This document shows, piece by piece, positions 1-15,981 of a stretch of 40,000 nt of DNA. The translations under genes were made by a program, and so were the position numbers. The stretch covers positions 57,023 through 97,022 of the forward strand of contig JACVCH010000012.1 of assembly GCA_016742175.1 (NCBI GenBank), given 5' to 3'. The stretch is from Rhizobiaceae bacterium (GTDB taxonomy: Bacteria > Pseudomonadota > Alphaproteobacteria > Rhizobiales > Rhizobiaceae). How positions within the stretch are numbered: the first letter of the stretch is position 1; each line of letters begins with the position of its first letter. The notes below the pieces were generated by a model, which made no database searches, was not told the origin of the DNA, and was given only the letters and a program-made list of their open reading frames with translations.

Positions 1-2031
1 GGCTATCTCGCCTCGCGCGACACGATCTTGACGCGGGCGCAACGCGTCTGGGTGATCGGCCACCGCGAGCAGAGCGACAATGAAATCAAGGGCGCCGTGA
101 TCGAGATGGTCGGCGCCTATCTAAATGCGGCCCGCTGGGGAGAAGATGGCCTGCGCAAACGCTTCGAGCGTCGGGGTGCCGACGCCGGGATCACCGGCTG
201 GTTGCCCGCCTGGCATGACGAAGAGCAGAACGACAAGGAAGCTGAAGCATTGGCAGCCTTCGGCTTTTCCCCGCGCGGACATGCGCTTTTTCCGTTCAAC
301 CATCTAGCGATTGAGCAACTCGTCCAGCAGCATCTGACCGTGGCCACTCGGCTCGTCTTCAACCCGCGTCGGGTGATCAACGAAATCCTGCGCCGTCCAC
401 TCCTTATGCGGGGCACGTTCGTCAGCGGGAATTTCCCGCCGCCTGAATTCCACGGGGTGCGTCCCAATGTCTATCTTGCGGGACTGATCCGGCAGACAAG
501 TCAACCTGAGCCCGTCAAGCGGCGCCTTGCTTCCGCGTTAGCCGTTTGGGCCGGCAATGCGGCGAATCATGCTGCGCTTTCCCATGTGTCGCCAGCGATC
601 TTCTCAACCTTTTCGCTGCCGACGCCGGCCGAACTCGCCAACGTGGTATTCGTACCCGAACAGACACCAGCAATTGAGCCCGCCAGACCGACGCGCTACG
701 AAGACGCGCCGCCCGCGCCGACGCCGCCAGTTGCGACCGAGCAGGATCCGCAGGTCGCGGCATGGTCTACCAAGCTTGATGCTTGGGCTAGTGGGATAGA
801 ACTTGTTCAGGCCGATGCGCGCGCACTTCGTAACGCCTTAGCGGATATGCTGAAGGGGGCAATCAATTGGCCGACGCTACGTCTCCCGGATCAAGCGATC
901 GACGCTCGCTCGCTCTGGATCGCCGGAGTCCGCAACAACCCTGTGGTCGGGCGAATCCTCGTCGTTTGTGACAGCCACGAGGACGAGGACGGCACGCTCC
1001 GCGAAGGCTTCCTCGGCGCGCTGAGGTTCGGCTTCAACGGTCATCGCTGGAACTACCCTGAGGCGGACATCGACTATGTCGCAAGCGCTGCCATTATAGA
1101 CCGTCTGCTCGTCCAGTTGACCCCGAAACTCGTTGCGGAAGCGAATGCGCAGACCGCGGTGATCGGGCGCGCTCTGCTCAATCAATCGCGCATTGTGGGT
1201 CTATCCCCTCCGATTCGCCCTGCCGGGGCCGAACCACTTCTACGCGGGCTTTTCTCGCCGCCGCCGCAGGTCGAGACGCAAGCATTCGAAGAAGGATGGG
1301 ACCAACTTCGCGCCCAAGCGACGGGGTCGGTCAACGGCAAGAGTCCGCGCGCGGTGCTGCAGGAACTCCTGCTCGACCGCAGCGCAAGTTTCCAAGGGAC
1401 GGGTAGCAAGCCCTTCGCGGTCGACAGCCCTCGCCTGCTGGACGCGCTTGCCAACGACCTGCCGGCAGGGTCGCTTCCGGAAGGTTTGCCGGACGAGGCG
1501 CGGACCTTCATCCCGACCATGACAGACGCGCGCATCTGGGGGAAACTGCAGGCAGTCATCTCCAAGCTTCGTGTCTTCCGCAGTGAGATTGCGGACTATA
1601 TCGACGAAAGCCTAGACAAGGGCGCCTTTGTTGCCGACCTGCGCGAGATCATCCCTTTATTGCAGAAAACAAACTGTTGGCCTGCCAATGTCGCAATTAA
1701 GCTCAGCGAGTTCGAAATTCGCCTGGCGGAGTTTCAGACCAGCCGTTTCGTAGATTTGGTGGAAAAGACGACGACCATCGTCGACGGGGCGGACCGTGAA
1801 CAGATCCCAAAGTTGCTCAACGCGCTTGGGTCACTCGACTTGGGGTTGATACAGCGCACCATGTCGTTTCTGACTATAGCTAATGAGATCGTGTCTCAAG
1901 CGGAGCCCCGCGTCGCACAGCAGGAGGCGGTTCGAGGTCAATCGGATCCCAGCGCTGTTGCGGCGGAGATCGCCAACCTGCTCGAGGGCCTCATCGAAAC
2001 GCCGCACATGGCAGCGGAGACGACAGTATGA
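1..2031 (+). CDS. Large hypothetical protein, 5'-truncated by the window edge; first visible gene of the helicase/PLD operon
   Basis: Frame 1 is open from nt 1 (GYLASRDTIL...), so the TTG at 28 in the ORF track is not a real start. Stop TGA 2029-2031 overlaps the next ATG (ATGA at 2028-2031). I recognise no catalytic motif by eye. Confidence 0.6.
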   Translation, partial: GYLASRDTILTRAQRVWVIGHREQSDNEIKGAVIEMVGAYLNAARWGEDGLRKRFERRGADAGITGWLPAWHDEEQNDKEAEALAAFGFSPRGHALFPFNHLAIEQLVQQHLTVATRLVFNPRRVINEILRRPLLMRGTFVSGNFPPPEFHGVRPNVYLAGLIRQTSQPEPVKRRLASALAVWAGNAANHAALSHVSPAIFSTFSLPTPAELANVVFVPEQTPAIEPARPTRYEDAPPAPTPPVATEQDPQVAAWSTKLDAWASGIELVQADARALRNALADMLKGAINWPTLRLPDQAIDARSLWIAGVRNNPVVGRILVVCDSHEDEDGTLREGFLGALRFGFNGHRWNYPEADIDYVASAAIIDRLLVQLTPKLVAEANAQTAVIGRALLNQSRIVGLSPPIRPAGAEPLLRGLFSPPPQVETQAFEEGWDQLRAQATGSVNGKSPRAVLQELLLDRSASFQGTGSKPFAVDSPRLLDALANDLPAGSLPEGLPDEARTFIPTMTDARIWGKLQAVISKLRVFRSEIADYIDESLDKGAFVADLREIIPLLQKTNCWPANVAIKLSEFEIRLAEFQTSRFVDLVEKTTTIVDGADREQIPKLLNALGSLDLGLIQRTMSFLTIANEIVSQAEPRVAQQEAVRGQSDPSAVAAEIANLLEGLIETPHMAAETTV

Positions 2032-2762
2032 GCAACTCACTTCCTGCTCGCGTCAGGGCGCTTCGCGAACGGTTGGTTGCTCTTGACCGGCTTGGTGCGA
2101 ATGTCGAGGAAACCGGGCTGCTTGAGGATCTGCGCTTGGACCTCTCGCCGCCCGCTTCCGAGCTTAACCGCGCCTTAGCCCAGCGCGCGCTGCTGATGGG
2201 GTCCGGTATCGAGACGCCAGAGCCGCCGACGCTCGAGACGGCACGAAAGCGAGCGGCGGCGCTGCTCGAGCGGTTCACCACGGAGCGGAAAGCGGCCACG
2301 CTAAAAAAGGGGACTGGATGGGCCAATCTGCTCAAGGAAACGAAGGCGGCCTCCGCCGATGTCTCTGTCTCGGTCATGCGCACTTGGAAAGGATATCGAC
2401 AGACCGTTTTTACCGGCGAGGCTCCAGCATTGGTGAAAGGCCGTATCGCCTTCACGCCGGCGAACAGTGCCGCGTACACGACCTATGAACAGCTCCACCA
2501 GACGTTTCGATCTGAATTTGAGAAACTCCCGGCGGACAAGGCCGCGATCGAACGAGTGAAGGCACTGGCGGCACGACTGACAGAGACGGCGAAAGAGTTC
2601 GATTTCGACGTTCCGGCGGACGTGAAGCGCTACCTCGAGGCCATTCAGAGCGGGGGAGCGAAGCTCGACCTTCTGACCGACGCGGTCCTCAAGTGGCTTA
2701 GAGAGAATGATGCCTTTGACAACTACCGCATCGTGCCGCGGAGCCCAGATGGAAGCCGATGA
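2028..2762 (+). CDS. Hypothetical 244-aa protein, helix-rich and charged, operonic with the helicase
   Basis: ATG 2028 overlaps the upstream stop. Its own stop at 2760-2762 lies 14 nt inside the helicase gene. No recognisable motif. Confidence 0.6.
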   Translation: MSNSLPARVRALRERLVALDRLGANVEETGLLEDLRLDLSPPASELNRALAQRALLMGSGIETPEPPTLETARKRAAALLERFTTERKAATLKKGTGWANLLKETKAASADVSVSVMRTWKGYRQTVFTGEAPALVKGRIAFTPANSAAYTTYEQLHQTFRSEFEKLPADKAAIERVKALAARLTETAKEFDFDVPADVKRYLEAIQSGGAKLDLLTDAVLKWLRENDAFDNYRIVPRSPDGSR

Positions 2763-5700
2763 AGCCCTACTCCTCGCCGTGCTGGATGAGATCGAACAGC
2801 GTGAGGCTCGGCTCCTTACGTGGGGCCTGGTCGACGGCCACGTGTCTGTCGGCGAGTTGCACGGCATCGTCAACATGCTGCTCGACGATCCGAAAATAAA
2901 CGGTGGGGTCTCTTTTGCGGACGCGAGTCAGGTCATGGCTGGACTGACCGATCGTGCCCTTCTGTTCGACATCGGCGAGGAAGCAGGCTCGCAGTACCGG
3001 TCGCGGATGGCGGAAGGAGTGAGGCTCCTGTTCCGATTGCGACAGCTGTTTCCGAAACATCGGGGTCCGATAGGTTGGCAGGCCGCGCCAACCCTTGTAG
3101 CCGACTTCCGTTTTATTTGGCGCCGCCGCCGCTATCCGCGGCGCGAGATTGAAGCTGCGGCGTCGCTCGCGAAGATTGCATCAGCAACGCCTGATCAGGC
3201 TGCGCGCGCCGCCCTTTCGGCGCTCATCGAAAGCTATGGGCCGCGATTTGCGCTCGCAGGCTTTCAGGTCGCTGCGGCTGCGCGGATCCTTGGCGGCTTC
3301 GAAGGTTCGCGGTCGACGGCTACGTTGGTTAGTGCCGGGACCGGTAGTGGCAAGACTTTAGCCTTCTACCTCCCGGCGCTCTCGCGTGCCGCCTCGCATA
3401 TCCAGCGTGACGCCGTGGGCGAGCGTTGGGTCAAAGTTCTCGCGCTCTATCCGCGCAACGAACTTCTAAAGGACCAGTTCGCCGAGGTATACGGTCAGGC
3501 GCGCCGTCTTGATGCCTTGCTCGCGGGGCGCGGACGCAGGAAGCTCCTCATCGGCACGTTCTTCGGTCCGACGCCCCGCTCTGCCGAGAAAGCGCACGAG
3601 GCGCGCAGCGGTTGGCGGCAAACGTCGGCTGGTCTCATCTGCGAGTATCTTCGGTGTCCCTCGCCGGAATGCGTCGGCGACATGGCCTGGCGTGATGCCG
3701 ATCGGCGCGCCGGGCGTGAGCGGCTCGAATGCCTCGGATGCTCAGCTGCAATCGAGAGCGACGAGATTATTCTCACCCGTGAGCGGCTGCAGCGGGAGGC
3801 GCCGGACATCCTGTTCACCACCACCGAAATGCTCAACCAGCGCATGGGGGACGACCGCTTCCGGCATTTGTTCGGGATCGGCGAGCGGGCACAGCGACCG
3901 GTGGAGATGATGCTGCTGGACGAGGTCCATACTTATGCCGGCAGTTCCGGTGCGCAGGTGGCTTTCCTCTTGCGCCGCTGGCGACGGCTTCTCCGGCGGC
4001 ATGTCAGCTTTGTTGGTTTGTCGGCCACACTCAAGGACGGCGCCCGTTTCTTTGCACAGTTGACTGGCTTGTACGAGCAGGCGTCGGTCGAGATCACTCC
4101 CCGCAACAGCGATATGATCGCGGAGGGTGCCGAGTATTTGCTCGCGCTGCGCGGTGATCCCGTGTCTCGCACGGCCTTATTGTCGACGACGATCCAAACG
4201 GGAATGCTCCTCTCCCGGCTCCTCGACGCGCCGGATGAACGGAAGAGCCAGGGCATCGTCGGCGAGCGAGTCTTCCTGTTCACCGACGATATCGACGTCA
4301 CGAACCGCATGTATTTCGCTATGCTCGATGCCGAGGGTCGGCGCAGCAGCGGCGCGCCCGACCTGGCGAACAAGCCGGACGGCGGTCTCGCATCGCTGCG
4401 GCGACCGCTGCCCGTCCAGCATCGCAAACTCCATGGACAGGATTGGGAAGCCGTGGTGGAGATCGGTCACAGTCTCCAGCCGCAGGACCGCAAGTCGGTT
4501 GGGCGGGTCATGTCGATGGACCCAGGGGTTGGCAACAATCTCGACATCATCGTCGCGACCGCGTCGCTCGAGGTGGGATTCAATGATCCCCGTGTCGGCG
4601 CGGTCATTCAGCACAAGGCACCCCGTGACGTCGCGCAGTTCCTGCAGCGCAAGGGTCGCGCTGGCCGATCGCGCCGGATGCGTCCTTGGACCGTTGCGGT
4701 GCTCTCGGACTATGGCCGTGATCGCCTTGCCTATCAGGGCTATGACCTTCTATTCGATCCAGAATTGCCGTTGCGCACGCTCCCGATCGGCAACCGTTAT
4801 GTGATGCGCATGCAGGCGGTCTATGCCACGCTCGACTTTCTGAGCCAGATGTTGGATTCCTCACGCCAAGGAAGCGTGTGGCTAGACCTGTCGACCAGCA
4901 CGGACAGCAACTATCAGCGAGCCCGCCAGACGGCGCTGGCCGGTCTGATCCGCCGCATCCTCACGATCCCGGCCGAACTCGACCGCTACACCTCCTATCT
5001 CGCCTCGTCGCTGAAAATTGAAGAAGACGCGGTCGCGCCTCTGCTCTGGGACCATCCGCGACCACTGATGACGCAGGTTCTGCCGACTGCGCTTCGGCGC
5101 CTCGAAAGCAACTGGCGTGCTTGGGGCCAGCCGGGCGAGGATCATCAGGTCTTCAATTCGCCGCTGCCCGAGTTCGCGCCGGCCAACCTGTTCAGCGATT
5201 TGAACGTACCCGAAGTCGATATTGTCCTGCCGCAACCGGGCAGCGCGACGCCCGAGCGGGTCGCCATGCCGATCGCACAGGCCCTGCGCGAGTTCGCCCC
5301 TGGCCGCGTATCGCGGCGATACGGCATCAGCCATGCGTTCGAGCGTCACTGGTTATGCCCGGCGCTCGACCAGAACCGCGAGCAGGCTGTGCCGCTTGAG
5401 TCATTTGCCCGTCTCGAACGCCTCGGCGATTGGCGCGTCAACGTCGGCGGTTTGCTGCGGCAGGTCCCCGTCTATCGGCCGCGTGTTCTCGAGGTTCAGC
5501 CGCCACCGGGCACCTTGGGCGATACCTCCAACGCTCGTCTTCGCTGGCGCAGTCAACTTGTCGCACGCGATGAGGGCATGGTACTCGATCCGCCGCGTGG
5601 GAGTCCTTGGACCCCGCTGATCGAGGATGTGCGGTTCTACTCCCACGAGGGACTGAGCCCGATCGAGGTCCGCCGTCTGGCGCTTGGAAGTGACGCGGGC

Positions 5701-7302
5701 ATTCGCTTCCGCGATGGCGGCTCGCTCGCCAAGGAGTTTCACTTCGAGGTCGGAGGAGAAGCTGTCGCGCTCGGGTTTAGTCTAGCGGTCGATGCTATGT
5801 GCATCCGCCTGCGGTTCCCCGACGCGTTGTGGTCGAACCTCGGAGCGGAGTCGGATCCGCGCTATCGGGCGATGCGCACGGCGCGCTTCCACCATCTTGC
5901 GTTGCATGGGCAGCTTGGCGAACACGTAGACAATCTGTTCGCACGCGAATGGCTAGCGCATCTGATGCTTGCAGCCCTCAGCAACGAATCGATGGCGCGT
6001 GGTATCTCGTTGCGGGAAGCAGCCGCACGGCTGGCGGACGGAAACGCAGAGTTCAGCCTCGATCAGACGCTCAACATCTTGTTTCAGTCCGCGGTTGTCG
6101 ATGATGCCAATGCCCAGGGCAACCAGCAGGACAAGTTGCGCCAAGATCTGGCCAGTTACGTCGCTGATCGGCAAGTGGTTGCCAGCCTGTTCGACTTAGC
6201 TGCCGTCCTTTGGACGCCTATCGATCCAAACTGGGAGCCATGGCTGCGCGAGCGATACGCTTCGACCGTCGGCGCGGCTGCGCTCAGCGCCATTTCAAGC
6301 CTTTGCCCGCAAATCGATAGCGACAGCCTCATCCTCGATGTGACAGCCGGCCCGCGCGAAGATGATGACGTGCTCGCCGGTATACCCAATGGCGAGATCT
6401 GGATTAGCGAGATGACGCCGGGCGGCAATGGGCAGATCGAGGTGGCGCAGAGTCAATATGTCGAGGATCCACGACGCTTCTTCAGCCTCATGACCGCAGC
6501 GTTGCGCGACAATGACTTCTCGCTCAGCGATTATCAACTGGGTCGCTTCCTCACCTCGGTCGTGGAGAGCGATAGCGCCGATCCGTTGCCGACTGCGGTG
6601 CGTGCGTTCCGAAGTGCCTCGGGCGCGGAGGAAAACCACGCGAGCTTTACCGCACTGCGTCACACGCTGGCGGAGGAAGGCTTTGTCACTTTTCACGCAT
6701 TCATAGTCGCGCTCGCCAATCGCATCCTCCGGCCCGGAACTAGCAGCGACAGCGACGCCTTCTTTCTCGACGCGATGCGCCTTTGGGATGCCGAGGAGGT
6801 GCGGCTCGGTATCGAACTGGATGCCCGCGTGCTCGCGCACCGTCTCGCGCGCTCCGACGACATCGATGCGGCGCTGGCTCTCTCCGGCATGGACCCGCCG
6901 ACAGTCGATCCGGGCCAGTGGCGCTTCGGCGTGATCTATGGACTGCTATGGCCGCGCGGCGCGCACATCCGGCAATCGGGCCTTCGACCCTATTCGCCAT
7001 TCGCCGATTTGCCATTGCCTGATCCGCTGCTGTTGCGGTCCTACTTGGCGGAGGATGCCGCGCTGATCGATGTCGAAGCGGAGGGCTGGCAGGAGCTTTG
7101 CCTCGACCGCCTTGCGGAGGTAGGCGCGGCGACGCTGATCTGCCGAATGGCGGCTTCATCGCTGCTGGCGGACGCGCTGAGCTTCCTGGCTACCAACCCC
7201 GCTCAGTCAGGCTATCTCTCGGTCTTTGCCCGGGTGCAGGCGGTGCGGCGGGTGGAGAACGCCTTCCATGTCGTACTCGATGTCCCGGAGGCGCTGCAAT
7301 GA
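2749..7302 (+). CDS. Very large SF2 DExH-box helicase (1517 aa) with an inserted Cys4 zinc-ribbon-like element and a ~900-aa C-terminal extension; DpdJ-like by context
   Basis: Motifs read in the translation: I AGTGSGKT (nt 3334-3357), Ia LYPRNELLKDQ, Ib TTTEML, II LLDEVH (DEVH nt 3919-3930), III LSAT, V VATASLEVGFN, VI QRKGRAGR. Cys cluster CEYLRCPSPEC...ECLGC at nt 3640-3741. Start moved to ATG 2749, downstream of ORF-track start 2707, to limit overlap with the upstream gene. Stop 7300-7302 overlaps the next ATG. Confidence 0.9.
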   Translation: MEADEALLLAVLDEIEQREARLLTWGLVDGHVSVGELHGIVNMLLDDPKINGGVSFADASQVMAGLTDRALLFDIGEEAGSQYRSRMAEGVRLLFRLRQLFPKHRGPIGWQAAPTLVADFRFIWRRRRYPRREIEAAASLAKIASATPDQAARAALSALIESYGPRFALAGFQVAAAARILGGFEGSRSTATLVSAGTGSGKTLAFYLPALSRAASHIQRDAVGERWVKVLALYPRNELLKDQFAEVYGQARRLDALLAGRGRRKLLIGTFFGPTPRSAEKAHEARSGWRQTSAGLICEYLRCPSPECVGDMAWRDADRRAGRERLECLGCSAAIESDEIILTRERLQREAPDILFTTTEMLNQRMGDDRFRHLFGIGERAQRPVEMMLLDEVHTYAGSSGAQVAFLLRRWRRLLRRHVSFVGLSATLKDGARFFAQLTGLYEQASVEITPRNSDMIAEGAEYLLALRGDPVSRTALLSTTIQTGMLLSRLLDAPDERKSQGIVGERVFLFTDDIDVTNRMYFAMLDAEGRRSSGAPDLANKPDGGLASLRRPLPVQHRKLHGQDWEAVVEIGHSLQPQDRKSVGRVMSMDPGVGNNLDIIVATASLEVGFNDPRVGAVIQHKAPRDVAQFLQRKGRAGRSRRMRPWTVAVLSDYGRDRLAYQGYDLLFDPELPLRTLPIGNRYVMRMQAVYATLDFLSQMLDSSRQGSVWLDLSTSTDSNYQRARQTALAGLIRRILTIPAELDRYTSYLASSLKIEEDAVAPLLWDHPRPLMTQVLPTALRRLESNWRAWGQPGEDHQVFNSPLPEFAPANLFSDLNVPEVDIVLPQPGSATPERVAMPIAQALREFAPGRVSRRYGISHAFERHWLCPALDQNREQAVPLESFARLERLGDWRVNVGGLLRQVPVYRPRVLEVQPPPGTLGDTSNARLRWRSQLVARDEGMVLDPPRGSPWTPLIEDVRFYSHEGLSPIEVRRLALGSDAGIRFRDGGSLAKEFHFEVGGEAVALGFSLAVDAMCIRLRFPDALWSNLGAESDPRYRAMRTARFHHLALHGQLGEHVDNLFAREWLAHLMLAALSNESMARGISLREAAARLADGNAEFSLDQTLNILFQSAVVDDANAQGNQQDKLRQDLASYVADRQVVASLFDLAAVLWTPIDPNWEPWLRERYASTVGAAALSAISSLCPQIDSDSLILDVTAGPREDDDVLAGIPNGEIWISEMTPGGNGQIEVAQSQYVEDPRRFFSLMTAALRDNDFSLSDYQLGRFLTSVVESDSADPLPTAVRAFRSASGAEENHASFTALRHTLAEEGFVTFHAFIVALANRILRPGTSSDSDAFFLDAMRLWDAEEVRLGIELDARVLAHRLARSDDIDAALALSGMDPPTVDPGQWRFGVIYGLLWPRGAHIRQSGLRPYSPFADLPLPDPLLLRSYLAEDAALIDVEAEGWQELCLDRLAEVGAATLICRMAASSLLADALSFLATNPAQSGYLSVFARVQAVRRVENAFHVVLDVPEALQ

Positions 7303-7838
7303 GTTTCGAGACAAGACGGATCTTCAAGAGCGCGGTGACCAGCCAGAATCTCATCCGCGAACTCCTCCAGATGATGTTTCTCGGGGAGCTTCTCGCCCCT
7401 GGCGGAGAGCGTGCCTGGCTGGTCAGCCCTTGGATCAGCAACGTGGTGCTGTTCGATAATCGTGCCGGCGGTTTGGGCTCGATCAATCCCGAGTGGGGCA
7501 ACCGCGAGATCAGATTGATCGAGGTCTTGACCGATGTCATGGCGCGCGGCACCTCGCTCGGTATCGCGACGAGCCTGGACGGTCACAACGATCCCCTCAT
7601 CGATGCGCTCGCCATGGCCGCAGATGAGGCGGGCCTGAACGATAAGTTGTGCGTCGTCCGACGTCAGCATCTTCACATCAAGGGCGTGCTGCTCAAACGA
7701 GGCCTGCTCACCGGCTCGATGAACCTCACGTACAACGGCCTCGAACTGAACGAAGAGATGGTGGTGTACGACACCACGCCAAAGACGCTCGCCGAAGCGC
7801 GGATCAACTTCGAATCCTACGTGGGCATGGGCGTATGA
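7299..7838 (+). CDS. Small single-domain phospholipase D/HKD-family nuclease-like protein (179 aa); DpdK-like by context
   Basis: HKD-type motif HIKGVLLKRGLLTGSMNLT (nt 7674-7724): HxK ... GSxN is present, but the canonical Asp position is Lys. Start is ATG 7299, in an ATGA overlap with the helicase stop. The ORF-track extension back to 7098 lies inside the helicase gene. Confidence 0.75.
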   Translation: MSFETRRIFKSAVTSQNLIRELLQMMFLGELLAPGGERAWLVSPWISNVVLFDNRAGGLGSINPEWGNREIRLIEVLTDVMARGTSLGIATSLDGHNDPLIDALAMAADEAGLNDKLCVVRRQHLHIKGVLLKRGLLTGSMNLTYNGLELNEEMVVYDTTPKTLAEARINFESYVGMGV

Positions 7839-10183: not shown

Positions 10184-10756
10184 TCAGGGCCTCAGATTCC
10201 ACACCCGATTGTCCCGCGATCGAACCCATGCGAGTACCGGCAGCGCCGCGACGACCATCCACAGTTTGCCAAGAACCTGACCCGGGAGAAGGTCGAGCCC
10301 CCCGAAAGCGAGGGTGAGAAAGACGATGCTATCGATGATTAAGCCTACGATACTGCTGGCGGTGGCAGCCAAGATCAAACCGCGACGCTGAAGCGGAGTG
10401 TATACTAGCAGATCTGCAACCTCCGACAGAGCGAAGGCTGCCGTTGAGGCGACGATCAGTGCCGGGGGTGCGAAAAATACAGATAGGATCGCCCCGATAG
10501 CGATGGCCGCAACCGACCAGGCGAGACCGAGCCGCCTTTGGACAAGATCGCGTAAGACAAGCGCTGCCCCGATGGCGAGGACCCCGCTTGGCGCGTAAAT
10601 TCCAGGCGCAACTGGGATGAGGCACGGACCATCTGGCACGCAGACTGTGCCCACATTTCCGATCATCCAATTGGCAAGCGGGATCGTGCATGCGAACGCC
10701 GCCAAGAATAAGCCACCCTCGATACGTTGCCTTCTATCAAGGTTACGCAATGGCAT
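10184..10756 (-). CDS. YhhQ/VUT-family membrane protein (queuosine-precursor transporter family)
   Basis: Polytopic hydrophobic protein. Segments align by eye to E. coli YhhQ: [24 protein letters not shown] vs ASFMAYALGQILDVHVFNRLRQ, and [20 protein letters not shown] vs ASTLFGNVSDTLAFFFIAF. Start is the internal ATG 10756, giving a 14-nt overlap with the queC stop at 10743. Confidence 0.7.
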
Positions 10757-11462
10757 TCTCCAGAGCCGCAGTGCGGAACTTTTCATATCCACGAGCGCGC
10801 AGATCACAAGCGGGACATTCGCCGCAGCCGCGCCCCCATTCGTTGATATGCTCGACGTCACCATTGTAGCAGGTCAACGTCCCATCCCGGATCAGTTCGA
10901 CGAGAGGAGCACCACCCAGTTTGTCTGCAAGCGACCACGTCTCAGCTTTGTTGATCCACATCAATGGCGTTTCCAAAACAAACCGGCTCTCCATGCCGAG
11001 ATTGAGGGCGACTTGCAGAGCTTTGATCGTGTCGTCCCGGCAGTCGGGATACCCGGAAAAATCTGTTTCGCAGACTCCGGTGACCACATGCTTCAGGCCT
11101 CGGCGATAAGCGACCGCTGCGGCGAAGGTAAGAAATAAGATGTTGCGGCCAGGCACAAACGTATTCGGCAGACCAGATGACATTGTCGCAATTTCAACTT
11201 CGCGCGTTAAGGCGGTATCGCTGATTTCGCCAAGCACAGCGAGATTGAGCACCCGATCGTCGCCAAGCCTCGCGGCCCATCCCGGGAAGGCTTTCGCCAG
11301 GCCGGCGCGGAATTCGATACGCGCATCGAGTTCCGCGCGGTGACGTTGTCCGTAGTCAAAGCCAATTGTCTCGACGCGGTCAAAGCGGTTCAGCGCCCAG
11401 ACGAGACACGTCGCGGAGTCTTGGCCGCCCGAGAAAAGTACGAGTGCACTGCTATCCGTCAT
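10743..11462 (-). CDS. queC: 7-cyano-7-deazaguanine (preQ0) synthase QueC
   Basis: N-terminal PP-loop [15 protein letters not shown] and C-terminal Zn motif [10 protein letters not shown]. Start ATG 11462 overlaps the queD stop (ATGA 11459-11462). The ORF-track N-terminal extension lies inside queD. Confidence 0.92.
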
Positions 11463-12467: not shown

Positions 12468-13556
12468 TCAGGCCGCCTTTTCGGTTTCGGCCAGGCGTCG
12501 CTTGAGCACCTGGACGAGATGAAAAGACAACTGGCGCACATCGGCCGGAACGTTCTGGAGCCCATTCCAACGCCGACGCTCTGCTCCAAATTCCCACTCG
12601 CCCGCGCTCCAGGCGGTTTTTCCTTTGAGCAATCGCAGACCAGCGGCGAACTCGTCCCGAGTCGAGGCGCCCGTGACGCTATTCAAAAAATCCATGACAT
12701 AGCCGAGAGCAATGATGCCGGTGCCATGGAGCAACCGAGATGACTTCGGTGTGTGTCCGATCCAATCCTCCGCGAAGACGTGCCGAACAGCGTGATAGAA
12801 TTCACTCATCGTGGTCACTCCCTTCTCCAGCAGGAGTTGATCCTCACCGGCGTAGAGGCGGAGCGTCCCGTCACTGAGGGAATTCATAATTACCCTTTGG
12901 AGGACGGTATCGCGGATGACGCCTTTGGGGTTTGTTTGCTGTTTGATCAGCCCTCTTAGTGAGGATCCTTCGCGATAGTTCAGCGCTTCAGTAACAAGAG
13001 CGGCTTGCGACCGACTTGACATTCTTGCCGGAAGATCTCCGACTTTAGGCAGAAGCTCATAAACAAGCGCTTTTGGCAGCGGGCGGGTGTTGTTGACCAA
13101 GATGAACTGCTTTTGAAGCTCCTCCTCGGTTTCGCAAAGAAAGCCCGAAACCAGCACCTCGAACTCGCGTTCGCGAAGTTCTGAAAGTGCTGTAAAGCGC
13201 TGTTGCCCATCCACGATCCAGCCGGGAGGGCCATTGGAGGTATCCACAACGAGTTGGTGAAGACGGCCCTCCGGACTCGTTGCTGGCTCCAGCCAGGCAC
13301 CGCCCATGAACGCGACCACGATGGCGTTCGGCAAGATCGCGTTTGGCTTTTCAAGGTAGTCGCGGATCTCGCGAATGTGGCCTGCAATTTGAGGCCTTTG
13401 AAAGCCTTGCAAGGTGCCGCCAGTATCTCGTCCCGCTCGCTCAATGCGAGCAATGCGCGCTACCTCGGAAGCTTTCGCCACGAACGTGAAAACTGCCAGC
13501 TTGTCGCTCTGGATCGGCGCAAGGGCGTCGAACCTAATATGGTGGGAATGGCTCAT
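12468..13556 (-). CDS. dpdB: DGQHR-domain (DndB/ParB-like) protein, DpdB-like, paralog 1
   Basis: Motifs LQGFQR, PNAIVVAF, WIVDGQQRFTAL, KQFILVNNTRPL. Start ATG 13556 overlaps the dpdA stop (ATGA 13553-13556). Confidence 0.75.
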   Translation of the reverse strand: MSHSHHIRFDALAPIQSDKLAVFTFVAKASEVARIARIERAGRDTGGTLQGFQRPQIAGHIREIRDYLEKPNAILPNAIVVAFMGGAWLEPATSPEGRLHQLVVDTSNGPPGWIVDGQQRFTALSELREREFEVLVSGFLCETEEELQKQFILVNNTRPLPKALVYELLPKVGDLPARMSSRSQAALVTEALNYREGSSLRGLIKQQTNPKGVIRDTVLQRVIMNSLSDGTLRLYAGEDQLLLEKGVTTMSEFYHAVRHVFAEDWIGHTPKSSRLLHGTGIIALGYVMDFLNSVTGASTRDEFAAGLRLLKGKTAWSAGEWEFGAERRRWNGLQNVPADVRQLSFHLVQVLKRRLAETEKAA

Positions 13557-14842
13557 ACAGTTTCCTGTCGAAATTCGGATAGGTGCGTGTGAAAGACGTG
13601 AAGGTTGTGAATGCCGCGGCGCTTGTTACGATTGGATGTTCGGAAAATTACTGCCTCAACACCGCTCTCCCGGCAAACCCTGCAACTGCAGTTGTCCCAA
13701 GGTCGATCGCCAAGGGTTTGCGCATAGGCTTTTCGCTGTCGCTTAACGGCATCAGCACGACGCCCGGGCGATGCCTCTTCGTCCCAGTTCAGAGCGGCCC
13801 AATAGTCCATCACACTATCAAGCGCCGGCTCCAAGGCCACGTTGCCATCAGCATAAGCCCGCACATGACGCAGGGCAGCGTCCTCGAGACGTCGCGCATC
13901 TTCCTGGTTGAGACTACCTTCCAGCGCCTTTTGCTTGAGCTTGTTGTTTTGAGTGGCCTGGGGAATGCGAATTGCCGTGTAGTAAGACAGGTCGCCGCCG
14001 GGCGTGCGCGCCCAATAATTCTTTCGGGCATCTTTAAACGCTCGCAAAAGAGGTGACGTCGTATCGAAGCTGGTTACTTTGAACCTGTCGAGCACGGCGA
14101 GTTCCTCGATCTTTCCAAAGCCCAAAAGGTGCAGCCGAACGTGCTCGGGGATTGCGTCCCGCAGGGCGCTTAAGACACGGCTGATTTGTTCAATCCTCAA
14201 AGGTACTGTGCCCCCAATCGCCAAGTAGTCGTAGCCCATATCCGCCAAGTTGCACGCCGCTTGTGCCATGCTTTCGGCAGACCATCCTTGGATGACGCCC
14301 ATCGGCGTGAACTGGGGTCCGAGTGCCTTCGCCGCTTTGTGGAACTCGCTAGCATTCTGGAGGGTAATTTCGTATCGCGAGCGCACATCCTCAGGAACGT
14401 CGCTCAAACGCCGCGTTACGCTTATGTCGTCGAAATCGAAGATAAGGTGATCCGGTGAGCATCCGTGCGTAAAGCCGCCGTCGGCGTAAAACTCGGCTGT
14501 GTCGTCCGCGTGGTAGGGTGGTTCCGGCAGATTGCGATACGAAAAGGCGCCGCAGTCACCCAGCATGATGCTCCCGGGGAATCGATCAAGGGGATACCGC
14601 AAGAATCGACGAGCGCCTTCTCGACGAAACCGCATGAGCTGCGCCTCAGAGTACTTCCCGGGGTGCCCAATGTCGCCGACGATGCCGCGAGATACCAGAA
14701 TCCCGTCATAAGGGGCCTGATCAAGGAACTCATGCGGGTACGCGTCGTCGCGATGGACCGCCCGGCCCTTGCCGTTTCGATCTTCAATGAAATCGTATTC
14801 GGGGTCGATAGTGTCGACGCTGTCGGCAAATACGAACCGCAT
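13553..14842 (-). CDS. dpdA: tRNA-guanine transglycosylase paralog, DNA-guanine transglycosylase DpdA-like (429 aa)
   Basis: TGT-fold signatures: GDCGAFSY, YLAIGGTVPL, and C-terminal Zn motif CSCRVC followed ~22-28 residues later by HNLHVFH. Sits between two DGQHR genes and upstream of queE/D/C. Start is the internal ATG 14842 (MRFVFADSVD...), a 1-nt TAATG overlap with the upstream stop. Confidence 0.85.
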   Translation of the reverse strand: MRFVFADSVDTIDPEYDFIEDRNGKGRAVHRDDAYPHEFLDQAPYDGILVSRGIVGDIGHPGKYSEAQLMRFRREGARRFLRYPLDRFPGSIMLGDCGAFSYRNLPEPPYHADDTAEFYADGGFTHGCSPDHLIFDFDDISVTRRLSDVPEDVRSRYEITLQNASEFHKAAKALGPQFTPMGVIQGWSAESMAQAACNLADMGYDYLAIGGTVPLRIEQISRVLSALRDAIPEHVRLHLLGFGKIEELAVLDRFKVTSFDTTSPLLRAFKDARKNYWARTPGGDLSYYTAIRIPQATQNNKLKQKALEGSLNQEDARRLEDAALRHVRAYADGNVALEPALDSVMDYWAALNWDEEASPGRRADAVKRQRKAYAQTLGDRPWDNCSCRVCRESGVEAVIFRTSNRNKRRGIHNLHVFHTHLSEFRQETV

Positions 14843-15981
14843 TACGCAACCTTCGCAAAGGCATGCATATGGTCGAGGCGCGCCAAATGACCGGATAACA
14901 TTTTGATGTCGCGTCCAACGTTTTGAATGTCGTTCCAGTCTCGCTGAAGTTCCGTCCACCTGCCTGTCGTCCAACGGCAATATGGAGCGATCCGTGACAG
15001 AGACTGTGTCGCGTGGAGGAGCAGGTCCGTCCCTGGCGCTGCACGCGACATGATCCGGTCCATCAAGAGGCTCATCGCCTCAATGCCCGCTGAGTGCATG
15101 AGTCGACTTTCTGTGGCTGGACGGCCCCACGCTTCCGGAAACACCGTGCGCACAGCGCTCCAGTAGGCGACAAGTGTGCGGTACATGGCATCAATGTCGG
15201 CGGGCGATTCTGCTGTCGCCTTGTATGGAGCAAGACAGCCAAGCGCACTGTTGATGCTGTTTCTGATCGCTTTGATCAAGGCCGAGTCCGTCACGACTGC
15301 AGTGGCAGAATCCTCGGACAGTCTCTTGATCAAGCCGAAGAACGGAGACTCTGCAGACGTTTGCAGGAGATTGACCAATTCACTGGGAATTTTCCGAGAC
15401 GAAAGGTCACGCGGGAAGGTGGTGTCCACCTCGGGGAGCAATTCGTTGATCAAGCGAGGATCAAGGGGCCTGGCCTTATTGACCAAGATGAATTGCTCAC
15501 GATGAACTGACAGTTCTTCCGATACGAAGGCAATAACAGGAACCGGGAAGGTTTTGTTCTGAGCCTGGGAAAGCGCGAGTGAGCGCTGCTGCCCATCAAC
15601 GATCCAGGCCGCCTTTGGACCATTGATGGGCAGGGGGATCCGCAGCGTCCCCGCTTCACAAGAGCGTACATCACCGCTCGGCCGTTCGCCCCGCGCCTGC
15701 GTAAAGCGCGCCCGGGGTGAAATGGCGAGAATGATAGCATTCGGGAAGAGCACGGGACCTTGATCTAAGAAATCTGTTATCGCTTGAACGTGACTCAGGA
15801 TTCCTTTGCGCTGAAATCCCTGCAGCCCTCCCTCGCTATCGCGGTGGACACGGCTAATTTCGGCAATTTTCAGCAGGTCAGCACCAGCCACAAAAAACGC
15901 GTAGACCGCTTTGTCCGCCTGTTCCGTGCGAACTGCCCGTACTGCGAGCGTAGGCTCCGCTGCTTTGCGCGGGCGTGTCAT
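14842..15981 (-). CDS. DGQHR-domain (DndB/ParB-like) protein, DpdB-like, paralog 2
   Basis: Same motif set as 12468-13556: LQGFQR, PNAIILAI, WIVDGQQRSLAL, EQFILVNKARPL, SRLMHSAGIEA. Start ATG 15981 overlaps the upstream stop (ATGA 15978-15981). Confidence 0.75.
   Translation of the reverse strand: MTRPRKAAEPTLAVRAVRTEQADKAVYAFFVAGADLLKIAEISRVHRDSEGGLQGFQRKGILSHVQAITDFLDQGPVLFPNAIILAISPRARFTQARGERPSGDVRSCEAGTLRIPLPINGPKAAWIVDGQQRSLALSQAQNKTFPVPVIAFVSEELSVHREQFILVNKARPLDPRLINELLPEVDTTFPRDLSSRKIPSELVNLLQTSAESPFFGLIKRLSEDSATAVVTDSALIKAIRNSINSALGCLAPYKATAESPADIDAMYRTLVAYWSAVRTVFPEAWGRPATESRLMHSAGIEAMSLLMDRIMSRAAPGTDLLLHATQSLSRIAPYCRWTTGRWTELQRDWNDIQNVGRDIKMLSGHLARLDHMHAFAKVA

What the first reader, a model, noticed from the sequence alone, without database searches (positions are those of the whole stretch)
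2749..7302. Giant DExH helicase with a Cys4 insertion in the first RecA domain and a ~900-aa uncharacterised C-terminal half
All SF2 motifs are intact, so the enzyme is probably active. A block rich in Cys and charged residues (CEYLRCPSPEC-x19-CLGC, nt 3640-3741) lies between motif Ia (LYPRNELLKDQ) and motifs Ib/II. After motif VI (about aa 660 of 1517) the remaining ~850-900 aa have no motif I recognise. They lack the clustered cysteines expected of a DUF1998/MrfA-type zinc domain, which often accompanies defence helicases. The extension could carry the sensor for unmodified versus deazaguanine DNA.
Basis: partly seen in the sequence, partly recalled or inferred. Interest (0 to 1): 0.6.

Follow-up and report, generated by a model that had tools for sequence, protein, structure and literature searches.

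The report
Ordinary DpdJ defence helicase
This gene encodes a textbook copy of DpdJ, the large helicase of the bacterial Dpd system that marks its own DNA with 7-deazaguanine and restricts unmarked DNA. Its cysteine insert and long "unknown" tail are family-wide features already described in a 2025 preprint, so the finding is ordinary.

Summary
ORF 2749-7302 (+) encodes a 1517-aa DExH helicase with all SF2 motifs. A cysteine block lies at nt 3640-3741, between motifs Ia and Ib. About 850 aa after motif VI match no Pfam domain.

The protein is not an unknown. It matches the NCBIfam equivalog DpdJ end to end (1850 bits, cut-off 800). It sits in a complete dpdE-F-G-H-I-J-K-D operon, opposite a dpdC-B-A-B-queE-D-C module.

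The block holds five cysteines, not four. All five are near-invariant in 79 species and 109 cluster representatives. C303, C308, C328 and C331 are lost only together, which marks them as the zinc ligands. C298 varies independently.

AlphaFold models (pLDDT 90 and 85) and Foldseek place the core next to DISARM DrmA and MrfA. The C-terminal half hits DrmB (probability 0.99) and Alba-fold proteins. It is therefore a cysteine-less OB-CON-DUF1998 "canopy" with helical inserts and an Alba-like end, as Bell et al. 2025 already reported.

One addition: dpdJ is stop/start-overlapped with the PLD nuclease gene dpdK in 61 of 78 loci and fused in frame to it in 6. This argues for a helicase-nuclease unit.

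No modified-base reader domain was found. The scan has met DpdJ-type helicases before on other DNA.

The parts
2749..7302 (+). dpdJ coding sequence (1517 aa plus stop)
   Evidence: NCBIfam NF041067 DpdJ equivalog, 1849.7 bits (cut-off 800), model positions 1-1482 of 1482. PADLOC DpdJ PDLC02896, 1626.7 bits, full length.
2749..3048 (+). N-terminal winged-helix-like domain (aa 1-100)
   Evidence: The AF2 model has helices 3-24, 34-45, 59-68 and 86-95 and a hairpin at 72-85, with pLDDT above 90. Bell et al. call this domain MukF-like wHTH. It was not fold-searched on its own here.
3244..4104 (+). RecA1 domain (aa ~166-452), carrying F172/Q173, Walker A, and motifs Ia, Ib, II (DEVH) and III (SAT)
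   Evidence: Motif positions. Motif residues are invariant in 70 orthologs. Foldseek best matches are DrmA 7s9w_A (E 1.1e-19) and MrfA 6znp (E 5.6e-17).
3601..3768 (+). Zinc-binding module inserted in RecA1 (aa ~285-340). The Cys block is at nt 3640-3741, with pattern C298-x4-C303-x4-C308-x19-C328-x2-C331.
   Evidence: Conservation: C298, C303, C308 and C328 in 79/79 species and C331 in 77/79; 94-96% in 109 representatives. C303, C308, C328 and C331 are lost together in 5 representatives, and C298 alone in 4. The model shows short strands 295-302, 311-315 and 326-328, like a zinc ribbon.
4105..4764 (+). RecA2 domain (aa ~453-672) with motifs IV-VI
   Evidence: Pfam Helicase_C at aa 595-641. 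TASLEVG 604-610 and QRKGRAGR 633-640. This is the most conserved stretch of the protein.
4786..5109 (+). Helical (HTH-like) domain after RecA2 (aa ~680-787)
   Evidence: Six helices in the C-half model, pLDDT 80-94. This position holds a helical or HTH domain in all YprA relatives according to Bell et al..
5110..5811 (+). Conserved linker plus beta-rich OB/CON region (aa ~788-1021)
   Evidence: Fourteen beta strands in the model. It holds the best-conserved motifs of the C-half (PLPEF..LFSDLN.PEV, REFAPGRVSRR, DTSNA, EVRR). Foldseek hits DrmB 7s9v_B with probability 0.99 over 392 columns.
5827..6303 (+). Helical insertion 1 (aa ~1027-1185)
   Evidence: All-helical in the model. This is the least conserved part of the protein. 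It corresponds to one of the 'two larger helical insertions' of Bell et al..
6304..6432 (+). Remnant of the DUF1998/MZB core (aa ~1186-1228): the LCP motif, strand LILDV, and strand EIWISE followed by PGGNG
   Evidence: The top local hhalign alignment with both MrfA-like and DrmB profiles falls here and is co-linear, but it is not significant (E 0.04-0.3). E1221, G1225 and G1228 are invariant. The Pfam MZB model does not hit it, although it does hit another helicase of the same genome.
6433..7047 (+). Helical region 2 (aa ~1229-1433). By the hhalign alignment it begins where the DUF1998 zinc cysteines would lie (about aa 1264-1285, no Cys).
   Evidence: Model helices. In the alignment to DrmB, the first zinc cysteine of DrmB falls on a DpdJ segment without Cys. 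Cys-bearing columns in the C-half interchange with V, I, A and L, and all four are Cys in only 8 of 109 sequences.
7063..7299 (+). C-terminal Alba-like alpha/beta domain (aa ~1439-1517)
   Evidence: The model shows a beta-alpha-beta-alpha-beta-beta order. Foldseek matches Alba proteins 9mcd, 3wbm, 8xao and 1vm0 and the IF3 C-domain 1tig, probability 0.90-0.96, target TM-score 0.47-0.63. A phage IF3 is also hit in BFVD.
7299..7838 (+). dpdK (PLD-family nuclease, 179 aa). Its start overlaps the dpdJ stop (ATGA at 7299-7302).
   Evidence: NF041068 DpdK, 193.6 bits (cut-off 100). Junction sequence. The same 4-nt overlap occurs in 61 of 78 loci, and an in-frame fusion in 6.
2028..2762 (+). dpdI, overlapping the dpdJ start by 14 nt
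   Evidence: The only NCBIfam hit is DpdI NF041066, E 5.3e-34, 118.3 bits, below the curated cut-off of 150. PADLOC DpdI, E 1.6e-06. A relative lies directly upstream of dpdJ in 51 of 78 loci.

Best explanation
The gene is a canonical dpdJ. It encodes the YprA/DISARM-type SF2 helicase of the restriction half (DpdD-K) of a Dpd 7-deazaguanine restriction-modification system.

Shown here:
- Family membership and an intact ATPase/helicase core.
- A conserved zinc-ribbon-like insert in RecA1. Its ligands are most likely C303, C308, C328 and C331.
- A C-terminal half made of a helical domain, a DrmB-like OB/CON/DUF1998 canopy that has lost its zinc cysteines and gained two helical inserts, and an Alba-like end domain.
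- Tight genetic coupling to the PLD nuclease gene dpdK, by stop/start overlap and, in one lineage, by fusion.

Inferred from MrfA and DrmAB:
- DpdJ loads on single-stranded DNA of incoming DNA and translocates with ATP.
- The canopy clamps the strand over the two RecA domains and relays conformational change.
- DpdK, docked at or near the C-terminal Alba-like domain, cuts the DNA.
- The zinc module is a structural element on the RecA1 surface. Some lineages have replaced all four ligands and kept an intact motor.

This work does not show which Dpd protein reads the presence or absence of dADG/dPreQ0.
For: Identity:
- NF041067 equivalog, 1849.7 bits against a cut-off of 800, over the whole model.
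- PADLOC DpdJ, full length.
- Neighbours in the window are DpdH, DpdI, DpdK, DpdD, QueC/D/E, two DpdB, DpdA and DpdC. DpdE, DpdF and DpdG lie just upstream on the same contig.

Core:
- All motifs are present and invariant in orthologs.
- The query differs from the family consensus at only 2 of 211 highly conserved columns.
- N-half model: pLDDT 90.1. Best structural matches are DrmA (E 1e-19) and MrfA (E 6e-17).

Zinc module: conservation and the pattern of concerted loss.

C-half:
- Model pLDDT 85.2.
- DrmB hit with probability 0.99, and Alba-fold hits with probability 0.90-0.96.
- No Cys cluster.
- The Pfam MZB model hits a different helicase in the same genome but not DpdJ.

Published description: Bell et al., bioRxiv 10.1101/2025.09.15.676423, report the same architecture.

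Nuclease coupling:
- DpdK lies downstream in 76 of 78 loci.
- The junction is ATGA or GTGA in 61 of 78 loci.
- Six in-frame DpdJ-DpdK fusions score 170-182 bits on the DpdK model.

Genetics in the literature: DpdA/B/C suffice for modification, and DpdD-K give the restriction phenotype (PMC10164549).
Against: - No DpdJ has been studied biochemically or structurally. Polarity, substrate and partner contacts are all by analogy.
- The DrmB match of the whole C-half model has a weak E-value (5.8e-3) and low TM-scores, because the model has many domains. I could not search single domains.
- Profile-profile comparison with MrfA-like and DrmB C-termini was not significant.
- In DISARM the PLD nuclease DrmC does not co-purify with DrmAB (PMC9142583), so a stable DpdJ-DpdK complex cannot be assumed from homology.
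- The six fusions come mostly from one phylum (Verrucomicrobiota) and may be a single event.
- Zinc binding is predicted, not measured.
Confidence: 0.72

Rival explanations
1. First reader's idea. The C-terminal extension, or the zinc module with it, is the sensor that tells unmodified DNA from dADG/dPreQ0-modified DNA. DpdJ would then be the discriminating component of the system.
For: - DpdJ carries three accessory nucleic-acid-binding-type modules that MrfA lacks: the N-terminal wHTH, the RecA1 zinc module and the C-terminal Alba-like domain.
- In DISARM, DNA methylation status is read inside DrmA/DrmB during strand loading (PMC9142583).
- DISARM class 1 DrmA has an EVE-like reader at the position of DpdJ's wHTH.
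Against: - No fold typical of modified-base readers (EVE, ASCH, YTH, SRA) appeared among the Foldseek hits.
- The helical inserts are the least conserved parts of the protein.
- Five lineages dispense with the four zinc ligands.
- Seven other restriction-side proteins (DpdD-I, DpdK) are equally uncharacterised candidates for the sensor.
Confidence: 0.13
2. DpdJ is mainly an allosteric switch or loader of the DrmAB kind. It recognises free single-stranded ends of invading DNA and activates other Dpd components (DpdE/F helicases, the DpdH/I BrxC-like ATPase, DpdD). It does not itself carry the nuclease along the DNA.
For: - The closest solved structures are DrmA and DrmB.
- DrmAB binds 5' overhangs and changes conformation through the DUF1998 hinge, and its nuclease DrmC is not part of the complex.
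- The operon holds two further helicases that could be the processive motors.
Against: - Translational coupling of dpdJ to dpdK in 61 of 78 loci and in-frame fusions in 6 argue for a one-to-one physical unit with the nuclease, unlike DISARM.
- The DUF1998 hinge has lost its zinc site.
Confidence: 0.12
3. DpdJ serves the modification side, opening DNA so that DpdA/DpdB can exchange guanine for preQ0.
For: Gedara et al. speculate that a helicase-like activity may be needed to give DpdA access to DNA.
Against: - Modification was reconstituted in vitro with DpdA, DpdB and DpdC alone.
- Genetics assign DpdD-K to restriction (PMC10164549).
- dpdJ lies in the dpdE-K operon, on the opposite strand from dpdA/B/C.
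Confidence: 0.03

Closest known systems
DpdJ of the Dpd system (Salmonella enterica serovar Montevideo dpdA-K cluster; NCBIfam NF041067; architecture in Bell et al. 2025, bioRxiv 10.1101/2025.09.15.676423)
   Same: Full-length equivalog match and the same length class (about 1500 aa). The same operon partners (DpdE-K, DpdD, DpdA/B/C, preQ0 genes). The same domain order: wHTH, RecA1 with one zinc module, RecA2, helical domain, OB-CON-DUF1998 without the 4-Cys cluster and with helical inserts, then an Alba-like end.
   Different: Nothing of substance. The gene order of the island differs: dpdD follows dpdK, there are two dpdB paralogs, and the modification operon is convergent. Two conserved columns differ (V385 for P, S1258 for E).
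DISARM DrmA + DrmB (PDB 7s9v/7s9w; Bravo et al. 2022, PMC9142583)
   Same: These are the best structural matches for both halves (DrmA E 1e-19; DrmB probability 0.99). The helicase is YprA-type with zinc modules in RecA1. A PLD nuclease gene follows. The defence depends on DNA modification.
   Different: DISARM splits the motor and the canopy into two genes, whereas DpdJ is one chain. DrmB keeps the C-x5-C-x15-C-x2-C zinc site, which DpdJ has lost. DrmA has a trigger loop and, in class 1, an EVE-like N-terminus instead of a wHTH. DISARM uses methyltransferases, not 7-deazaguanine. DrmC is not tightly coupled to the helicase.
MrfA/YprA (Bacillus subtilis, PDB 6znp/6znq/6zns)
   Same: An SF2 DExH core (Foldseek E 5.6e-17) with a canopy over the RecA domains. 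This is the model for 3'-to-5' ssDNA translocation.
   Different: MrfA is half the size. It has no RecA1 zinc module, no helical inserts and no Alba-like domain. It keeps the 4-Cys MZB domain, works in DNA repair, and pairs with the exonuclease MrfB rather than a PLD nuclease.
DruE (Druantia) and ARMADA helicases
   Same: Same YprA superfamily; giant defence helicases rich in zinc modules.
   Different: Only the helicase core matches (PADLOC DruE about 70 bits). Those proteins have a BrxA-like domain, a beta-barrel zinc module in RecA2 and C-terminal nuclease domains, and they keep DUF1998 cysteines. A DruE-like gene of that kind sits elsewhere in this genome.

Membership tests
DpdJ (NCBIfam NF041067 equivalog) | Full-length match above the curated cut-off | tested here: met
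   1849.7 bits against a cut-off of 800, model positions 1-1482 of 1482, protein aa 12-1517. PADLOC PDLC02896, 1626.7 bits.
DpdJ (NCBIfam NF041067 equivalog) | Lies in a dpd cluster with DpdA/B/C and the other restriction genes DpdD-K | tested here: met
   DpdH, I, K, D, A, B (two copies), C and QueC/D/E in the window (DpdH at 410 bits and DpdI at 118 bits are the only NCBIfam hits for their ORFs but fall below the curated cut-offs of 450 and 150, DpdH being cut by the window edge). DpdE, F and G at C22:49238-55910, directly upstream.
DpdJ (NCBIfam NF041067 equivalog) | One zinc-binding module inserted in RecA1 (Bell et al. 2025) | tested here: met
   Cys block at aa 298-331, between motifs Ia and Ib. 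Conserved in 77-79 of 79 species.
DpdJ (NCBIfam NF041067 equivalog) | DUF1998 4-Cys cluster lost | tested here: met
   No Cys cluster after aa 331. No conserved Cys set in the C-half of the family. No PF09369 hit in DpdJ.
DpdJ (NCBIfam NF041067 equivalog) | C-terminal Alba-like domain | tested here: met
   Foldseek hits to Alba proteins and IF3-C, probability 0.90-0.96, about 90 columns.
DpdJ (NCBIfam NF041067 equivalog) | N-terminal MukF-like winged helix | tested here: inconclusive
   The model shows a confident helix/hairpin domain at aa 1-100. It could not be fold-searched alone, and whole-model hits are dominated by the helicase core.
DpdJ (NCBIfam NF041067 equivalog) | Needed for restriction of DNA lacking dADG/dPreQ0 | not testable with these tools
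   The literature assigns DpdD-K collectively to restriction. No gene-by-gene data for DpdJ were found.
YprA/MrfA-type DUF1998 helicases | SF2 DExH core of the MrfA type | tested here: met
   Foldseek 6znp_A, E 5.6e-17. Weak sequence hit to YprA 6znp.
YprA/MrfA-type DUF1998 helicases | OB-CON-DUF1998 canopy after RecA2 | tested here: inconclusive
   DrmB 7s9v_B has probability 0.99 but E 5.8e-3 and TM-scores of 0.16 and 0.24. hhalign to MrfA-like and DrmB profiles picks the expected co-linear core but is not significant.
YprA/MrfA-type DUF1998 helicases | Four-cysteine zinc site of the MZB domain (PF09369) | tested here: not met
   No hit and no cysteines at the aligned position. DpdJ is therefore a derived branch of this family that works like it in outline but lacks this hallmark.
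DISARM (DrmA/DrmB) | Helicase and DUF1998 protein encoded as two genes, with DrmMI/MII methyltransferase | tested here: not met
   DpdJ is one 1517-aa chain. The DrmB family model NF038324 finds nothing above threshold in this genome. All neighbours are Dpd and Que genes.

The most novel reading that the evidence does not exclude
The accessory modules that set DpdJ apart from MrfA form one platform: the RecA1 zinc ribbon, the cysteine-less DUF1998 hinge with its helical inserts, and the Alba-like end that abuts DpdK. This platform would read whether the guanine in the DpdA target motif is replaced by dADG/dPreQ0 as the strand passes, and would gate the PLD nuclease accordingly. DpdJ would then be the first helicase known to discriminate a 7-deazapurine base during translocation.
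Probability: 0.12. Interest if true: 0.6.

Novelty: already known. Interest (0 to 1): 0.22.

Why it matters
As a discovery it matters little. An annotation pipeline would name this gene DpdJ, and its odd features (zinc module in RecA1, lost DUF1998 cysteines, Alba-like tail) are in a 2025 preprint.

Its residual value is practical, because DpdJ and the whole DpdD-K restriction half remain biochemically untouched. This work adds three things:
- A ligand assignment for the zinc site (C303, C308, C328, C331; C298 separate).
- Lineages that lost the site while keeping the motor.
- Rosetta-stone evidence that DpdJ and the DpdK nuclease act as one unit.

Together these give clear mutants and constructs for a first mechanistic study.

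Tried and rejected
- Sequence search of the C-half against PDB chains, with the single protein and with a 71-sequence profile. Only helicase-core hits or noise came back.
- Pfam scan of the C-half of 52 orthologs at E up to 1. There was no recurrent family and no MZB or Alba hit.
- hhalign of the DpdJ C-half against profiles I built from MrfA-like C-termini and from DrmB. E was 0.04-0.3, which is not significant. Only the co-linear core around the PGG motif is suggestive. One script failed on a wrong Cys pattern for DrmB.
- A possible relic zinc site in the C-half (columns near aa 886, 908, 1182 and 1186, Cys in about half of sequences). I rejected it because these Cys interchange with V, I, A and L, and all four are Cys in only 8 of 109 sequences.
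- Foldseek of the C-half against viral structures found nothing beyond an IF3-fold hit.
I could therefore not measure Cys-Cys distances or search single domains.
- Literature searches for DpdJ and for DpdD-K found no experimental study of DpdJ.
Full report
**Observation**

The ORF at 2749-7302 (+) translates to 1517 residues without a stop.
- GTGSGKT, aa 197-203
- LYPRNELLKDQ, aa 233-243
- TTTEML, aa 357-362
- DEVH, aa 391-394
- SAT, aa 425-427
- TASLEVG, aa 604-610
- QRKGRAGR, aa 633-640

The cysteine block is exactly at nt 3640-3741. It contains five cysteines (298, 303, 308, 328, 331), not four. The remaining roughly 1190 residues hold only five scattered cysteines. Pfam recognises only DEAD and Helicase_C. 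The description is accurate.

**Identity**

The protein matches the NCBIfam equivalog model for DpdJ over the model's whole length, at 1849.7 bits against a cut-off of 800. It also matches the full-length PADLOC DpdJ model.

The neighbours are as follows:
- On the same strand in the window: DpdH (cut by the window edge), DpdI, DpdK (a PLD nuclease whose ATG overlaps the dpdJ stop as ATGA) and DpdD.
- On the opposite strand: a YhhQ-like transporter, QueC, QueD, QueE, DpdB, DpdA, a second DpdB and DpdC.
- On the same contig, directly upstream of the window: DpdE, DpdF and DpdG, all above their cut-offs.

This is a complete Dpd 7-deazaguanine restriction-modification island, and the gene is its dpdJ.

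The family is rare. It was found in 4 of 401 genomes sampled from the phylum. It is nonetheless widespread. A pattern scan found relatives in 570 species genomes, in Proteobacteria, Cyanobacteria, Verrucomicrobiota, Planctomycetota, Acidobacteriota, Myxococcota and others. Orthologs 85-91% identical occur in Sphingomonas, Sphingobium, Phyllobacterium, Ensifer and Gluconacetobacter, so the island moves horizontally.

**The cysteine insert**

In 79 species orthologs, C298, C303, C308 and C328 are invariant and C331 is present in 77. In 109 full-length representatives of 50%-identity clusters, each is 94-96% conserved.

The exceptions are informative:
- Four sequences lack only C298.
- Five lack C303, C308, C328 and C331 together while keeping C298, the surrounding scaffold and intact Walker A and DExH motifs.

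Concerted loss of four residues is the signature of a metal site. The zinc ligands are therefore most likely C303, C308, C328 and C331 (a C-x2-4-C knuckle and a C-x2-C knuckle about 19 residues apart). C298 is an independent, probably buried, residue.

The AF2 model of aa 1-720 (pLDDT 90.1, pTM 0.85) shows short strands at 295-302, 311-315 and 326-328, as in a zinc ribbon. The spacing between motifs Ia and Ib is 100-128 residues throughout the family, so the insert is a family trait. Some lineages keep the motor without the ligands, which argues for a structural rather than catalytic role. Zinc binding itself is inferred.

**The C-terminal half**

Residues 660-1517, searched alone against 1.8 billion cluster representatives, found 1064 clusters (506 at E below 1e-30). 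In every full-length (about 1500 aa) protein among the 150 listed, the match starts near residue 620-800, directly after the helicase core; the shorter listed proteins look like fragments. It is therefore a fixed part of DpdJ, not a peculiarity of this gene.

At the sequence level it matches nothing else:
- No PDB chain, even with a 71-sequence profile.
- No Pfam family in any of 52 orthologs.

The AF2 model (pLDDT 85.2, pTM 0.82) gives this domain order:
1. A six-helix domain (aa 680-787).
2. A conserved linker and a beta-rich region (aa 788-1021).
3. A helical insert (aa 1027-1185).
4. Two strands and a PGG-G turn (aa 1186-1228).
5. A second helical region (aa 1229-1433).
6. A beta-alpha-beta-alpha-beta-beta domain (aa 1439-1517).

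Foldseek against the PDB gave only two kinds of credible hit. One was DrmB of DISARM (7s9v_B, probability 0.99, 392 columns, E 5.8e-3). The other was Alba or IF3-C fold proteins (probability 0.90-0.96, about 90 columns, target TM-score 0.47-0.63). The N-half model is closest to DrmA (E 1e-19) and then MrfA (E 6e-17).

Profile-profile comparison with MrfA-like and DrmB C-termini that I collected from genomes was not significant. In both cases, however, the top local alignment was the same co-linear core. The DpdJ motif with strand EIWI.E and PGG.G aligns with the DUF1998 strand and PGG.G. The DrmB zinc cysteines then fall on a DpdJ segment without cysteines.

The Pfam MZB model gives an internal control. 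It hits a different, DruE-like helicase of the same genome but not DpdJ. Cys-bearing columns in the C-half interchange with aliphatic residues and do not co-occur, so they are buried positions and not a metal site.

**What is already published**

Bell et al. (bioRxiv 10.1101/2025.09.15.676423) place DpdJ in the DISARM-like clade of the YprA family and describe the following:
- An N-terminal MukF-like wHTH.
- A single zinc-binding module inserted into RecA1.
- A helical domain after RecA2.
- An OB-CON-DUF1998 canopy with two larger helical insertions.
- Complete loss of the 4-cysteine DUF1998 cluster in canonical Dpd.
- A C-terminal ALBA-like domain.

My independent models and searches agree with each point I could test.

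**Mechanism**

Established for relatives:
- MrfA is a 3'-to-5' ssDNA translocase whose canopy clamps the strand.
- DrmAB binds 5' ssDNA overhangs. It is released from autoinhibition by DNA and uses DUF1998 as a hinge for a long-range rearrangement (PMC9142583).
- For Dpd, DpdA/B/C suffice for modification and DpdD-K give restriction, with no individual roles known (PMC10164549).

New evidence here concerns the partner:
- dpdK follows dpdJ in 76 of 78 loci.
- The dpdJ stop overlaps the next start as ATGA or GTGA in 61 of 78 loci.
- In six loci (five from Verrucomicrobiota, one metagenomic chromosome) DpdJ is fused in frame to a full DpdK domain (170-182 bits).

This places the PLD nuclease next to the Alba-like C-terminus. 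It makes a helicase-nuclease unit the most likely working form, in contrast to DISARM, where DrmC is loosely associated.

I therefore read DpdJ as the ATP-driven ssDNA motor that carries or gates DpdK on DNA lacking 7-deazaguanine marks. Identity is near certain. The mechanism I put at roughly 60%. Which protein reads the modification is open.

**Verdict**

This is a correct observation of an ordinary, already described protein. The small additions are the ligand assignment, the lineages that lost the zinc site, and the DpdJ-DpdK coupling and fusion statistics. The scan has met DpdJ-type helicases on other DNA before, including a note on the same zinc-ribbon insert and cysteine-less PGG-G signature.

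Noticed in passing
L048, L049, L054, L061, L072, L078 (about 10500-11200 in each locus): In these genomes (five Verrucomicrobiota, one metagenomic chromosome) dpdJ has no stop codon and runs in frame into a full DpdK PLD nuclease domain of 187-193 extra residues. Each scores 170-182 bits on the DpdK model.
   Followed up: yes
Own genome, contig C13:8934-16999 (locus L130:1935-9999): This is a second YprA-type defence helicase: 1789 aa, DruE-like in PADLOC (270 bits, partial), with an intact MZB/DUF1998 hit. It is directly followed by a DpdE/DrmD/BrxHII-like SNF2 helicase (593 bits to a PADLOC DpdE model). The pair looks like an ARMADA or Druantia-related system in the sense of Bell et al. 2025.
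   Followed up: partly
window 2749-7302 compared with loci L009-L028: DpdJ is 85-91% identical between this genome and Sphingomonas, Sphingobium, Phyllobacterium, Ensifer, Rhizobium and Gluconacetobacter. That is far closer than these genera are to each other, so the Dpd island has spread horizontally among Alphaproteobacteria.
   Followed up: partly
window 6520-6522 (aa 1258) and 3901-3903 (aa 385): These are the only two departures of this DpdJ from columns that are at least 90% conserved in the family: S for E at 1258, next to the place where the DUF1998 zinc cysteines would lie, and V for P at 385.
   Followed up: no
window 12468-13556 and 14842-15981 (minus strand): Two DpdB paralogs flank dpdA, and both are above the DpdB cut-off.
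   Followed up: no
Representatives P0182, P0209, P0211, P0214, P0252: These DpdJ relatives have replaced all four putative zinc ligands but keep C298, the insert scaffold and intact Walker A and DExH motifs. They are natural zinc-free variants that could guide mutagenesis.
   Followed up: partly
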